A DNA stretch of 64,000 nucleotides, taken from NCBI RefSeq assembly GCF_017348835.2, contig NZ_CP072315.1. One strand, written 5' to 3'. A program made the position numbers and the translations under genes. This DNA is from Escherichia coli (GTDB lineage Bacteria > Pseudomonadota > Gammaproteobacteria > Enterobacterales > Enterobacteriaceae). Within the stretch, counting starts at the first letter, position 1; each line of letters begins with the position of its first letter. The notes beneath the pieces were generated by a model. That model was given only the letters and a program-made list of their open reading frames with translations. It did not search any database and was not told the DNA's origin. Shown here in pieces: positions 35,274 through 52,043 of this stretch.

Positions 35274-37691
35274 TTATGTTTGAGGGAATTCTATAGCAAA
35301 TGTGGCCGTGCCAGATTGACCACTTACAGCGGGAGTAACGGGATACGTGCGCTCTTCACCATTACCAAGATCCAGTGACAGCGATTTAGTTTCACCAGGC
35401 TGGACCGTAACTCCGGCAACCGTAACGCCGAACTGGGCATTTTTCTGAACAGTCAGGGTTCCGTTTAACTGTCCGGTAATGATAGAACCGTCCTGACGCC
35501 GCAACACACTGGTTCGGATGATGGCCAGCGGCGTGTTGTCCGTTGCTTTCAGTGCTACGGCTGTGGCCAGCGTCTTGAGATTATCCAGCATAATCAGATT
35601 CGCAGGCTGGTAGGTAAAATTAAGCGTTTTAGTGGTCCGGTTACCTGATTCGTCAATAGCCAGTGCCTCCAGATGATACATCTGTCCCGATTCGTCAGTG
35701 TTGGGGAAGATTCTGGGGTATTCCGGAATAAAGACATCCTTGGATAACGGCGTGAATGCCAGGGTGACCTTTTCAGAGTTAGGTCCACCAGCGAGCTGAA
35801 GCGATGTCAGGGAAGCATCCCCAGAGGCATCAGTAACGCTTATGCGAAGGTTCTCAAGCCCTTTAACCAGTTTTCCTTCTGCGTCTGCGCCATTAAAACT
35901 GAACGCGATAACCGGAAGCGTTGAGTCAATTTTCAGCGGTGCATTAAGCGTTTTGGTTCCGGTGTTTCCAACAAGATCCGTGGCAGAGACGCTAACCACC
36001 GTATAATCCCCGTCCGGTAGACCAGCGTATGAGAAGGTGGCGTTTTTGGTTTTATAATCGCTTTCACTGACGGTCACAGGCTTCAGCGTGAAAGGTTCCC
36101 CCCGGGCATTTTTAAGGGTGGCTTCGAAAACTTTGGTATCCCAGTAGCTGATGTTCCAGGCGTTGACGCGATCATTATCGGTGGCCGTCATAGTGATTGT
36201 CTTGGAGGCCTTGTTTACCTGAGCGACATTAACCACCGGTGGGTTGTTATCCCAGATAACCGTAAAATTACCAGCAAGCGCATCGAATATGCTGTCACCA
36301 TCTTTTCCCGAGTAAAGGTGCAGATACTCAAATCCTTTGTCACTGGTGTAGTTGAAGTTAACCGTCATCTCGCATGAACTTTGTCCGATAGGTATAGTGC
36401 AGAACCAGGCTGCATTTTTTACCGTTCTGAACTTTTGCACGTATGGTCGGGGTTCAGCGGTTACCTTTATGCGGCTAATGGTGGCGGTTTTAACGCTGAT
36501 TGAGGCCTGAGTTAACCACTCACTGGTATCACTCCGGTACATCTCTTTAGCCACTATCTTCGGGGCTATTTCCATCGCCGGGGCTGGAGTGAAGTTGAGG
36601 GAGTTATGATGAATTCGTCTTACTCCTCCTGCCAGAGTCTGGAATTCATGATAAGTATCCCCCACATTGGGATATATGTATTTGAAAGTATAAATATTAT
36701 AAGTGCTATCGGACGTCTGGAAATTCGAGTCCGCCCAGCCATATTTGGAACCGTTAACAGCAGTAAAGTCACTTTTTTTCCTTAATACCCGTACGGAAAT
36801 AGGGTTCTGGAAGACGGTCATGCCAGACTGATAAGTGACCCATGATCCGGTAGTGGCGTCCTGCACCTGGATGATATCGTCAGGCTTAACCCGATCAATT
36901 ACGCTTCGGCGGCTTAGTTCGATCCTGTTTCCCGCTTTGTCATAAAGGTAGATCCCCACTTTATATTCAGAGCGGTTTTCCGGTGCCAGGGCATTGCTGC
37001 TTGCGTCGGCGACTTGAACGGTTACGCTACCTTCCACTGTATTAATTTCCGCTGGCTTTTTACGCTCCACTCCAGCGGCATCGGTTATGAAATATTCAGC
37101 ATTAGCAAGCCCGGAACCTTTATCACTCAGTCCATTAAAGACCAGTGCCTGGACGCTGGCGTACTGCATACCGGCTGGTACTGAAGTGAAGATCGCTTCG
37201 CTGCCAAAGTTCCACCCGTTTCTCGTATAACTTATGGTACCCGTTGCCGGAGGCGTTCGGTCAATTGCAAGCGGGTAATCCTGCCGGGAGACCTCCTTCC
37301 CTTGCAAGTCGGTAATCACCTCTCTGAGGGTGAAGCTATCTTCTCCCATCGCTGGTACGGTCAGAGTCTTGCCGTAATAATCAAAGCCTGTCGAAGATGT
37401 GGTACGGTCATCTACGGTAACCAGGCTGCTTTTCGTGCTCCAGATGAGGCTCCCGTCACTTTTCAGCAGACTGAGCGTAATATAACGGTCCAGACCGGAA
37501 ATAACGGCAACGTCAAAGCTCGTTACCGGATTAATCCATACGGATGCAGGCGATACGGTCTTTTTAACGTTCAGGGTATCTTTAAAGCTGAATTCTGCGA
37601 TTTCAGCGGAAGCTCCTGCGCTGAAACCTGCAAATGCAATAAGCAGGGCTAGTTTGATTTTCATGGGTTGTCTCCTGATCAGGTTCCCCAT
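35274..37691 (-). CDS. large secreted beta-rich protein (paralog 1 of 3)
   Basis: 805 aa with N-terminal signal peptide (ALLIAFAGFSAGASA) and shared blocks with the two paralogs (ISGLDRY near N-terminus, GLENLRI, PEYPR(I/L)FPN, C-terminal L(D/Q)(L/M)G.G). Confidence 0.7.
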   Translation of the reverse strand: MGNLIRRQPMKIKLALLIAFAGFSAGASAEIAEFSFKDTLNVKKTVSPASVWINPVTSFDVAVISGLDRYITLSLLKSDGSLIWSTKSSLVTVDDRTTSSTGFDYYGKTLTVPAMGEDSFTLREVITDLQGKEVSRQDYPLAIDRTPPATGTISYTRNGWNFGSEAIFTSVPAGMQYASVQALVFNGLSDKGSGLANAEYFITDAAGVERKKPAEINTVEGSVTVQVADASSNALAPENRSEYKVGIYLYDKAGNRIELSRRSVIDRVKPDDIIQVQDATTGSWVTYQSGMTVFQNPISVRVLRKKSDFTAVNGSKYGWADSNFQTSDSTYNIYTFKYIYPNVGDTYHEFQTLAGGVRRIHHNSLNFTPAPAMEIAPKIVAKEMYRSDTSEWLTQASISVKTATISRIKVTAEPRPYVQKFRTVKNAAWFCTIPIGQSSCEMTVNFNYTSDKGFEYLHLYSGKDGDSIFDALAGNFTVIWDNNPPVVNVAQVNKASKTITMTATDNDRVNAWNISYWDTKVFEATLKNARGEPFTLKPVTVSESDYKTKNATFSYAGLPDGDYTVVSVSATDLVGNTGTKTLNAPLKIDSTLPVIAFSFNGADAEGKLVKGLENLRISVTDASGDASLTSLQLAGGPNSEKVTLAFTPLSKDVFIPEYPRIFPNTDESGQMYHLEALAIDESGNRTTKTLNFTYQPANLIMLDNLKTLATAVALKATDNTPLAIIRTSVLRRQDGSIITGQLNGTLTVQKNAQFGVTVAGVTVQPGETKSLSLDLGNGEERTYPVTPAVSGQSGTATFAIEFPQT

Positions 37692-52043: not shown

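What the first reader, a model, noticed from the sequence alone, without database searches (positions are those of the whole stretch)
35274..52043. Three diverged paralogs of an ~810-aa secreted protein surround the replication region
The ORFs at 35274..37691, 41285..43705 and 49587..52043 all have signal peptides and share collinear blocks across their whole length (ISGLDRY near the N-terminus, GLENLRI, PEYPR(I/L)FPN, C-terminal L(D/Q)(L/M)G.G) yet differ strongly in between. Three copies of a large exported protein on one plasmid suggests functional diversification, for example surface adhesin, receptor-binding or exclusion variants. I cannot assign the family from sequence alone; the beta-rich, Thr/Ser/Asn-rich composition suggests tandem Ig-like or beta-sandwich domains.
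Basis: partly seen in the sequence, partly recalled or inferred. Interest (0 to 1): 0.7.

Follow-up and report, generated by a model that had tools for sequence, protein, structure and literature searches.

The report
Three RSP2-type conjugation proteins, IncHI2 plasmid
The three large exported proteins are real, anciently diverged relatives of RSP2, an immunoglobulin-like protein that helps IncHI resistance plasmids transfer between bacteria. The family is therefore known, but published work says that IncHI2 plasmids lack it.

Summary
Three ORFs (A 35274-37664/37691 -, B 41285-43705 +, C 49587-52043 -) encode about 800-aa proteins that align over their whole length: A-B and A-C 28-29% identity, B-C 41%, E from 1e-82 to 0.

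The window is an IncHI2 plasmid. All three proteins have the Pfam architecture DUF4165 + Big_3_2 + Big_3_3, a Sec-type signal peptide and one conserved cysteine pair. AlphaFold models them confidently as rigid all-beta chains of Ig-like domains.

This is the architecture of RSP2 of the IncHI1 plasmid R27. RSP2 is a secreted protein that binds the conjugative pilus and flagella, interacts with RSP and raises transfer about 100-fold in liquid.

- A falls in the RSP2 clade (38% identity, reciprocal best hit, bootstrap 100).
- B and C form a second clade. It is well conserved in IncHI1 (74-86% identity), but both lineages are naturally inactivated in R27.

Comparative context ties the family to RSP. 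An Aeromonas plasmid has four tandem copies followed directly by an rsp homolog. The IncC protein is a fusion of the two. RSP and this family have nearly identical plasmid distributions.

Verdict: new members of a known kind. This corrects the published statement that IncHI2 plasmids lack rsp2. The function of B and C is inferred, not shown.

The parts
35274..37664 (-). Paralog A, 796 aa. The ORF is open up to 37691, which would give 805 aa. It is the RSP2-clade member: DUF4165 + Big_3_2 + Big_3_3.
   Evidence: ORF. RefSeq start and the name 'Ig-like domain-containing protein' WP_000694550. Shine-Dalgarno sequence before 37664. Pfam. 38% identity and E 7e-175 to R27 RSP2, reciprocal best hit. 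Clade bootstrap 100. AF2 pLDDT 91.2.
37605..37664 (-). Signal peptide of A (aa 1-20, MKIKLALLIAFAGFSAGASA, predicted cleavage ASA|E).
   Evidence: Sequence inspection. Low-pLDDT N-terminal helix. Near-invariant Ala20 in the family alignment.
35117..35133 (-). Terminator-like hairpin plus T-run about 140 nt after the stop codon of A.
   Evidence: Consensus scan. The total number of such sites in the region is no greater than in shuffles, so this is only suggestive.
41285..43705 (+). Paralog B, 806 aa, a member of the second (B/C) clade. Domains: DUF4165 aa 21-138, Big_3_2 aa 139-259, Big_3_3 aa 549-705. Conserved Cys436/Cys445.
   Evidence: AF2 pLDDT 91.7 and pTM 0.80. The IncHI1 orthologue survives only as fragments, 74-86% identical.
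41285..41347 (+). Signal peptide of B (aa 1-21, MKHLAFITAVAGLGMSVQAPA, predicted cleavage APA|Q).
   Evidence: Sequence inspection. Near-invariant Ala21. pLDDT below 50 for residues 1-21.
49587..52043 (-). Paralog C, 818 aa, B/C clade. It is 41% identical to B and 82% identical to an intact IncHI1 orthologue.
   Evidence: Intact orthologue in pSE81-1706. Interrupted by IS30 in R27. dN 0.117 with dS saturated.
51978..52043 (-). Signal peptide of C (aa 1-22, MRKTLIGCMVATALATVSSAHA, predicted cleavage AHA|Q).
   Evidence: Sequence inspection. The LIGC at aa 5-8 resembles a lipobox but lies too close to the N-terminus to serve as one (inference).
47391..48479 (-). repHI2 replication initiator.
   Evidence: Annotation of the 100% identical record. 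It is 38% identical to the RepB-family initiator at the syntenic R27 position.

Best explanation
A, B and C are members of the RSP2 family of plasmid-encoded 'Big' proteins. These are extracellular accessory factors of the H-type (MOBH / MPF_F) conjugation apparatus.

Proposed mechanism:
1. Each protein is made with a Sec signal peptide and exported to the periplasm.
2. There it folds into a rigid chain of about 7-8 Ig-like domains and forms one disulfide bond.
3. It reaches the cell exterior by a route that depends on the plasmid's pilus and T4SS machinery and on the large partner protein RSP.
4. Outside the cell, together with RSP, it decorates the conjugative H-pilus and also the flagella. 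This lowers motility and helps donor and recipient make and keep contact. It raises transfer mainly in liquid and at the low temperatures at which IncHI plasmids mate.

A is the IncHI2 counterpart of RSP2. B and C are a second, older branch of the same family. They probably do a related and partly redundant job with a different binding surface. The C-terminal third is conserved among the paralogs, possibly for docking to RSP or the pilus. The middle domains are variable.

What is shown here: homology, architecture, fold, signal peptide, purifying selection, and linkage to rsp in other plasmids. What is taken from published work on R27 RSP2 and the IncA/C protein: secretion, pilus and flagellum binding, and the effect on conjugation. 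What is inferred: that the IncHI2 proteins behave the same way.
For: Plasmid identity: the window is 100% identical to IncHI2 plasmids typed MOBH/MPF_F.

Architecture: all three have DUF4165 + Big_3_2 + Big_3_3. This is the architecture reported for R27 RSP2 (PMC8730810).

Homology to RSP2, full length: A E 7e-175, C E 1e-121, B E 3e-106. A, its 81% variant and RSP2 form a clade with bootstrap 100.

Fold: AF2 models of B and A have pLDDT 91.7 and 91.2 and pTM 0.80 and 0.77, and are all-beta. Whole-chain TM is 0.8-0.94 to DUF4165 proteins from other genera at 23-33% identity.

Export: signal peptides and a conserved Cys pair. The disulfide isomerase HtdT is encoded on the same plasmid type.

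Selection: dN about 0.115 with dS saturated, which is tighter than for neighbouring backbone genes.

Partner genes: rsp, trhB, trhV and trhN and TraC- and TraK-type genes are on the same plasmid type.

Linkage to RSP, which was not seen in the papers read here:
- Aeromonas pSS332-218k has four tandem family genes followed directly by a full-length rsp homolog (E 3e-132), next to traD and traK.
- The 1828-aa IncC protein is an RSP2-type module fused to an RSP-like region of about 1000 aa (E 2e-64).
- RSP homologs occur in 2961 plasmid records and the family in 3058, with near-identical counts per genus.

Published function:
- RSP2 co-precipitates with RSP, is found in the secretome, needs TrhH and TrhA, and binds pili and flagella. 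Deleting rsp2 lowers transfer about 2 logs in liquid (PMC8730810).
- The IncA/C homolog is needed for transfer at 25 deg C.
- RSP export needs TrhC (PMC6764697).
Against: - No experiment exists for the IncHI2 proteins.
- A is only 38% identical to RSP2, while the surrounding backbone genes are 58-90% identical. Functional equivalence is therefore not guaranteed.
- In R27, which is transfer-proficient, the C lineage is cut by IS30 and the B lineage is reduced to fragments. B-type and C-type proteins are therefore not essential for transfer, at least in the laboratory.
- The three genes lie outside the tra regions, among replication and maintenance genes.
- No shared, conserved regulatory motif linking them to tra operons was found.
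- A Sec signal followed by T4SS-dependent release is mechanistically unusual. The route across the outer membrane is unknown.
Confidence: 0.6

Rival explanations
1. They are surface adhesins for host colonisation, biofilm or environmental attachment, like SiiE or BapA-type Ig-repeat adhesins. On this view they are carried as plasmid cargo and unconnected to DNA transfer. This could apply at least to B and C.
For: - Fold matches include the SiiE adhesin and S-layer Ig arrays.
- The genes lie outside the tra regions.
- The B and C lineages are naturally inactivated in the conjugative plasmid R27.
- RSP and RSP2 also bind flagella and change motility, so their effects are not limited to transfer.
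Against: - The family is found almost only on conjugative elements: 2740 of 3058 records are typed conjugative. All six plasmids whose typing was read (five conjugative MOBH/MPF_F, one Aeromonas plasmid typed only 'mobilizable') are MOBH.
- It co-distributes with rsp, sits beside rsp in Aeromonas and is fused to it in IncC.
- Two family members affect conjugation experimentally.
- There is no anchor domain and no T1SS or T5SS partner nearby.
Confidence: 0.2
2. They are recipient-recognition or exclusion variants. Each paralog would bind a different recipient surface structure, or block redundant mating, and so set the host range of transfer.
For: - The middle domains are the most divergent part among the paralogs (13-25% identity), while the C-terminal third is conserved (45-53%). 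This is the pattern expected for a common dock plus variable binding surfaces.
- Multi-copy sets recur in unrelated plasmid lineages.
Against: - There is no direct evidence.
- Orthologues are under strong purifying selection, with no fast-evolving window detected.
- The three genes are at least 99% identical in more than 1000 IncHI2 plasmids from many host genera. They are therefore not being tuned to hosts.
- Published targets of the family are the donor's own pilus and flagella.
- From my own knowledge, not checked here: entry exclusion in IncHI1 is assigned to other, small genes.
Confidence: 0.1
3. They are periplasmic proteins that never leave the cell, for example alpha-2-macroglobulin-like protective proteins or assembly scaffolds for the T4SS.
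For: - They have a Sec signal and no recognisable outer-membrane export signal.
- Foldseek ranks alpha-2-macroglobulin and complement MG-domain arrays highly.
- One database names the identical protein 'Periplasmic protein'.
Against: - TM-scores to macroglobulins are 0.1-0.2, which reflects generic Ig-array similarity.
- There is no thioester motif. The only conserved cysteines are the CxIPxGxTxC pair.
- RSP2 and the IncA/C homolog were identified in cell-free secretomes by LC-MS/MS.
Confidence: 0.07

Closest known systems
RSP2 (R0055 / R27_p055) of IncHI1 plasmid R27 (Huttener et al. 2022, mSphere, PMC8730810)
   Same: About 800 aa, with the same DUF4165 + Big + Big_3 architecture and an N-terminal signal. 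It aligns over its whole length with all three proteins. It lies in the same syntenic block between the RelE toxin gene and the replicon. A is its reciprocal best hit and clade-mate.
   Different: A is only 38% identical to it and sits in a slightly different slot of the block. B and C belong to another clade, whose IncHI1 members were not studied. The paper states that IncHI2 plasmids lack rsp2. That holds only as far as the paper's BLAST search for the rsp2 gene reached.
ALG87338.1-type 1828-1843-aa Big protein of IncA/C (IncC) plasmids (PMC8730810)
   Same: Its N-terminal 800 aa or so are the same module (26-33% identity to A, B and C). The protein is secreted and is needed for transfer at 25 deg C.
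   Different: It is single-copy, encoded inside the tra region between traA and dsbC/traC, and carries an RSP-like extension of about 1000 aa. In effect it is an RSP2-type module fused to RSP. In IncHI2 the two are separate genes about 35 kb apart.
RSP (R0009), the IncHI-type conjugal transfer protein
   Same: It is a plasmid-encoded secreted Ig-like protein that binds the pilus and flagella and is required for transfer. It is the likely partner of these proteins, and it is present on the same plasmid type.
   Different: It is not a close homolog. Only a weak local Big_3-like similarity is seen (E about 0.1). It is 1432 aa, single-copy and located in the Tra2 region.
Ig-repeat adhesins and mating adhesins (Salmonella SiiE; Enterococcus PrgB Ig-like domains)
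   Same: They are chains of Ig-like domains exposed outside the cell, and they appear among the fold matches. PrgB also promotes mating-pair formation; this point is from my own knowledge.
   Different: There is no sequence homology. They use different secretion and anchoring systems, and the similarity is generic to Ig arrays.

Membership tests
RSP2 / DUF4165 'Big' protein family of MOBH-MPF_F conjugative plasmids | Pfam architecture DUF4165 + Big_3_2 + Big_3_3 in a module of about 800 aa | tested here: met
   All three proteins match: Big_3_3 E down to 1.7e-65, Big_3_2 down to 1.9e-38, DUF4165 down to 5.7e-17.
RSP2 / DUF4165 'Big' protein family of MOBH-MPF_F conjugative plasmids | Significant full-length sequence similarity to R27 RSP2 | tested here: met
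   BLASTP: A 38.3% over 804 columns, E 7e-175. C 35.3%, E 1e-121. B 32.1%, E 3e-106.
RSP2 / DUF4165 'Big' protein family of MOBH-MPF_F conjugative plasmids | N-terminal export signal | tested here: met
   Each has an n-region, an h-region and an AxA site. The -1 Ala is near-invariant in the family. The AF2 models show a disordered N-terminal helix. This is by inspection only; no signal-peptide predictor was available.
RSP2 / DUF4165 'Big' protein family of MOBH-MPF_F conjugative plasmids | Encoded on an element that also encodes RSP and an H/F-type T4SS | tested here: met
   The 100% identical plasmid NZ_CP090540 carries rsp, trhB, trhV, trhN, trhU, trhF and htdT and TraC-, TraK- and TraL-type genes, and is typed MOBH/MPF_F. 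The window itself contains none of these genes.
RSP2 / DUF4165 'Big' protein family of MOBH-MPF_F conjugative plasmids | Secreted in an RSP-, TrhH- and TrhA-dependent way; binds the conjugative pilus and flagella; deletion lowers conjugation | not testable with these tools
   Known only for R27 RSP2, and in part for the IncA/C homolog.
RSP2 clade proper (orthologues of rsp2) | Groups with R27 RSP2 to the exclusion of other family members, and is its reciprocal best hit | tested here: met
   This row is for A only. The clade {A, its 81% variant, RSP2} has bootstrap 100/100, and the two are reciprocal best hits. B and C do NOT meet this: they form a separate clade with bootstrap 100.
RSP (IncHI-type conjugal transfer protein RSP) | Full-length homology to R0009 | tested here: not met
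   The best local alignment scores 23.5 bits, E 0.099.
Alpha-2-macroglobulin / thioester-containing proteins | Thioester motif (CxEQ) and the macroglobulin domain order | tested here: not met
   Each mature protein has only two cysteines, in the CxIPxGxTxC context. Foldseek TM is 0.1-0.2.
Autotransporter, intimin-type or T1SS giant adhesins | A beta-barrel anchor, or a C-terminal T1SS signal with an adjacent ABC/MFP/OMP export system | tested here: not met
   The AF2 models consist only of Ig-like sandwiches. No such Pfam domains were found. No transporter genes are among the neighbours.
Known anti-phage defence proteins (PADLOC) | A match to any PADLOC model | tested here: not met
   No families matched any of the three proteins.

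The most novel reading that the evidence does not exclude
RSP2-type proteins and RSP may together form a conserved, modular, multi-component extracellular apparatus of MOBH/MPF_F conjugative elements: IncHI, IncA/C, and Aeromonas and Vibrio plasmids. Typically there would be two to four RSP2-type paralogs per single RSP, encoded as an operon (Aeromonas), as a fusion (IncC) or scattered (IncHI).

On this reading the unstudied B/C clade is not a redundant spare. It would be a distinct subunit that sets which surfaces or recipients the H-pilus engages. Since R27 transfers with both lineages inactivated, its role would lie in a condition or specificity not probed by standard laboratory matings. 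IncHI2 plasmids, major carriers of mcr-1, would then expose three more conserved antigens besides RSP.
Probability: 0.3. Interest if true: 0.6.

Novelty: new member of a known kind. Interest (0 to 1): 0.4.

Why it matters
IncHI2 plasmids are among the main vehicles of colistin (mcr-1) and multidrug resistance (PMC6764697). RSP is already being tested as a vaccine and nanobody target against IncHI plasmids (PMC11268884).

Published work states that IncHI2 plasmids have rsp but lack rsp2. This analysis shows instead that they carry one RSP2-clade gene and two further family members. All three are at least 99% identical in more than 1000 sequenced IncHI2 plasmids, and two lineages compared with distant orthologues (A and C) are under strong purifying selection.

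That gives three extra, highly conserved and probably surface-exposed targets. It also defines a clear genetic experiment on how H-type conjugation pili are decorated.

The operon in Aeromonas and the fusion in IncC give independent support that RSP and RSP2-type proteins act as one system.

Tried and rejected
1. NCBIfam gave no family. There was only a sub-threshold PorU hit in C (18.9 bits against a cut-off of 420), judged to be Ig-like noise.
2. A PDB sequence search with the three-sequence profile found nothing.
4. PADLOC gave no defence-family match.
5. Rfam at gathering threshold found nothing in the window.
6. I looked for a shared regulatory motif. The 11-mer AGGCAAATTAT lies upstream of both B and C, but not upstream of A and not in the R27 orthologue promoters. 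With one mismatch allowed, its frequency in the window is at chance level. I did not treat it as evidence.
7. I looked for positive selection. dS is saturated in every window while dN stays at 0.05-0.18, so only purifying selection is visible. Closer orthologue pairs would be needed.
8. I considered two ancient types alternating I-II-I-II in the Aeromonas operon. Pairwise identities hinted at this, but the larger 84-sequence tree put all four Aeromonas copies together. I dropped the idea as unresolved.
9. The 1114-aa protein downstream of the A-like gene in the Enterobacter plasmid L008 is not RSP-like.
10. LIGC at residues 5-8 of C resembles a lipobox. I rejected it because the preceding segment is too short for a lipoprotein signal (inference).
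11. The consensus promoter and terminator scan was not enriched over shuffles.
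Full report
**1. The observation**

I call them A, B and C.
- A three-way alignment is collinear from the signal peptide to the last residues.
- BLASTP gives A-B 28.6% (E 7e-87), A-C 29.0% (E 2e-82) and B-C 41.2% (E 0).
- tblastn of the three proteins and of RSP2 against the window finds only these three loci.
- A most likely starts at the ATG at 37664 (796 aa). An AGGAGA Shine-Dalgarno sequence lies 6 nt upstream, and RefSeq uses this start.
- All three N-termini have the n-region / hydrophobic core / AxA layout of Sec signal peptides. 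The Ala at -1 is nearly invariant across 66-72 family members. The AlphaFold models have a low-confidence helix up to about residue 20, followed by folded domains.
- The mature proteins share exactly one cysteine pair, CxIPxGxTxC (B: C436/C445). It is nearly invariant in the family and is consistent with a periplasmic disulfide.

**2. Where the window comes from**

Bases 34000-54000 are 100% identical to many IncHI2 plasmids of Salmonella, E. coli and relatives. One example is p2016062-242, typed IncHI2A, MOBH relaxase, MPF_F.
- RepHI2 (47391-48479) lies between B and C.
- RefSeq names all three proteins only 'Ig-like domain-containing protein'.
- The same plasmid type carries rsp, trhB, trhV, trhN, trhU, trhF, htdT and TraC-, TraK- and TraL-type genes outside the window.

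**3. What the proteins are**

- Pfam finds the same three domains in each: DUF4165, Big_3_2 and Big_3_3.
- AlphaFold2 with family alignments gives confident models. B has pLDDT 91.7 and pTM 0.80. A has pLDDT 91.2 and pTM 0.77. Both are all-beta, with about 7-8 Ig-like sandwiches.
- Against AFDB50 the whole chain superposes at TM 0.8-0.94 on 'DUF4165 domain-containing' proteins of Vibrio, Photobacterium, Aeromonas and Shewanella at only 23-33% identity. The inter-domain geometry is therefore a conserved, rigid shape, not beads on a string.
- An exhaustive profile search finds 217 clusters (at 50% identity) with E below 1e-30. They come as stand-alone proteins of about 800 aa and as proteins of about 1830 aa that carry the module at the N-terminus.

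**4. Link to the literature**

The architecture is that of RSP2 (R0055, 794 aa) of the IncHI1 plasmid R27.

Huttener et al. 2022 (PMC8730810) showed the following for RSP2:
- It co-precipitates with RSP.
- It is found in the cell-free secretome.
- It needs RSP, TrhH and TrhA to reach the exterior.
- It binds flagella and the conjugative pilus and lowers motility.
- Its deletion lowers R27 transfer about 100-fold in liquid.

They also showed that an IncA/C protein with the same domains is secreted and is needed for transfer at 25 deg C. RSP export needs the T4SS ATPase TrhC (PMC6764697).

[quoted passage not shown] Searches of the held paper library for DUF4165, for IncHI2 with 'Ig-like domain', and for 'Big proteins' found no paper that describes the three IncHI2 genes.

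**5. Relation to R27**

The R27 region 44-70 kb is syntenic, in inverted orientation, with window 26-58 kb: Dam methylase, DUF4942, an Ig-like gene, the replicon, Ig-like genes, RelE/ParE, and the neighbour of the PAPS-reductase gene.

R27 carries all three lineages:
- C lineage: an orthologue 82-84% identical, cut by IS30. It is intact in other IncHI1 plasmids such as pSE81-1706, and 228 plasmid records fall in the 80-90% identity band.
- B lineage: only fragments, 74-86% identical. The same truncated state appears in other plasmids of this group sampled in the tblastn table (also pSE81-1706).
- RSP2: the reciprocal best hit of A, but only 38% identical.

For comparison, neighbouring backbone proteins are 58-74% identical (RelE 90%), and RSP itself is 83.5% identical between the groups. 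B and C are therefore among the better conserved genes of the region, while A/RSP2 is by far the most diverged.

A bootstrapped neighbour-joining tree gives {A, an 81% variant from Enterobacter, RSP2} at 100/100 and {B, C, IncHI1 C-orthologue} at 100/100. The Klebsiella IncHI1B copies join the second clade at 97/100. Trees of 66 and 84 sequences place A/RSP2 and B/C in different major branches. The paralogy is therefore old and predates the split between IncHI1 and IncHI2.

**6. Selection and conservation**

- For A against its 81% variant, and for C against its IncHI1 orthologue, dN is 0.115-0.117 while synonymous sites are saturated. No 100-codon window exceeds dN 0.18.
- Two neighbouring control genes have dN 0.22-0.29. 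This is strong purifying selection.
- Within IncHI2, 1027 (A), 1078 (B) and 1106 (C) plasmid records carry copies at least 99% identical, usually three places per record.
- Among the paralogs, the C-terminal 200 aa are the most alike (45-53%) and residues 150-600 the least (13-36%).

**7. Independent genomic evidence tying the family to RSP**

- (a) In Aeromonas caviae plasmid pSS332-218k (MOBH), four family genes lie head to tail with gaps of about 10 bp. They are followed 18 bp later by a 1399-aa protein that aligns with R27 RSP over its full length (27% identity, E 3e-132). The cluster lies beside traD and traK-type genes.
- (b) In the 1828-aa IncC protein, encoded between traA and dsbC/traC, the first 800 aa or so are the RSP2-type module. 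The remaining 1028 aa align with RSP residues 372-1405 (24% identity, E 2e-64). It is a natural fusion of the two.
- (c) RSP homologs occur in 2961 plasmid records and the RSP2 family in 3058. The counts per genus are almost the same: Klebsiella 918 and 926, Salmonella 546 and 564, Enterobacter 329 and 333, Citrobacter 137 and 137, Vibrio 67 and 67, Providencia 51 and 51. RSP is single-copy (3049 places), while the family averages 2.5 places per record.
- (d) All six plasmids whose typing I read are MOBH, and five of them are also typed MPF_F.
- (e) Multi-copy sets recur: three tandem copies next to parAB in Klebsiella IncHI1B plasmids, and two or three paralogs in several Vibrio, Aeromonas, Photobacterium and Shewanella species.
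- (f) The 81% variant of A lies next to TraG_N, DsbC and DsbA genes.

**8. Most likely mechanism**

Sec export is followed by periplasmic folding with one disulfide. Release to the surface then depends on the pilus/T4SS machinery and on RSP. Outside the cell the proteins associate with RSP on the H-pilus and on flagella, which favours mating contacts at low temperature and in liquid.

The homology, fold, signal peptide, purifying selection and linkage to rsp are shown here. The secretion route, the binding targets and the conjugation phenotype are taken from R27 RSP2 and the IncA/C protein. Applying them to A is a reasonable inference. Applying them to B and C is weaker, because R27 transfers with both lineages inactivated.

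**9. Rivals**

I considered three alternatives:
- Cargo adhesins unrelated to transfer.
- Recipient-recognition or exclusion variants.
- Strictly periplasmic macroglobulin-like proteins.

The first remains possible for B and C. The others have little support: there is no thioester motif, no anchor or dedicated secretion partner, no sign of host-specific tuning, and the published targets are the donor's own appendages.

**10. Verdict**

The finding is real. The family itself is already characterised.

What is new is modest but concrete:
- IncHI2 plasmids do carry an RSP2-clade gene, plus two members of a second, unstudied clade.
- IncHI1 plasmids carry the same three lineages, two of them inactivated in R27.
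- The Aeromonas operon and the IncC fusion link the family to RSP.

Noticed in passing
window 44413-45810: A small ORF plus an IS91-family transposase (399 aa) are inserted between paralog B and repHI2. Most otherwise identical IncHI2 plasmids lack this segment: their matches cover 92% of the 20-kb query in two pieces.
   Followed up: partly
window 12376-13494: A 372-aa IS4-family transposase ORF (NCBIfam NF033592, E 1e-38). The window is about 1350 bp longer here than the otherwise collinear record NZ_CP090540, so this is an extra IS insertion. An IS150-type element lies next to it (13824-15193 in the record).
   Followed up: partly
window 41168-41178 (+) and 52114-52124 (-): The exact 11-mer AGGCAAATTAT occurs twice in the window. 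Both copies are in sense orientation upstream of a paralog: 117 nt before the start of B and 81 nt before the start of C. It is absent upstream of A and of the R27 orthologues. It could be a remnant of the duplication or a shared operator.
   Followed up: partly
L003 (R27 44000-70000): 4926-8605 and 11630-12479: In the reference plasmid R27, the orthologue of C is split by IS30 and the orthologue of B survives only as two fragments. Only RSP2 is intact. The experimental work on R27 was therefore done in a natural double mutant of the other two lineages.
   Followed up: yes
L004 8968-14454 (IncC plasmid pNDM-EcoGN568): The 1828-aa IncC 'Ig-like' protein between traA and dsbC/traC is a fusion of an RSP2-type module (aa 1-800) and an RSP-like region (aa 800-1828, E 2e-64 to R27 RSP residues 372-1405).
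   Followed up: yes
L011 15110-28906 (Aeromonas caviae pSS332-218k): Four tandem RSP2-family genes are followed directly by a full-length rsp homolog. The arrangement looks like an operon and lies next to traD and a DUF4400 gene.
   Followed up: yes
window 61890-62765: A second replication initiator (RepB family, 291 aa). It corresponds to position 1-876 of the circular record, so the window holds both IncHI2 replicons.
   Followed up: no
window 23453-25837, 29020-30270, 39070-39831, 57517-58329: The region around the three genes holds several DNA-modification genes: a 794-aa PAPS-reductase-family protein, a site-specific DNA methyltransferase, a further methyltransferase and a Dam-family methylase. 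There is also a RelE/ParE toxin gene (34023-34319, 90% identical to its R27 counterpart). These names come from the annotation only.
   Followed up: no
window 52020-52043 (C, aa 5-8): The signal peptide of C contains LIGC, and its IncHI1 orthologue has LTGC. Both resemble a lipobox but lie only 8 residues from the N-terminus. This is probably just part of the hydrophobic core.
   Followed up: no
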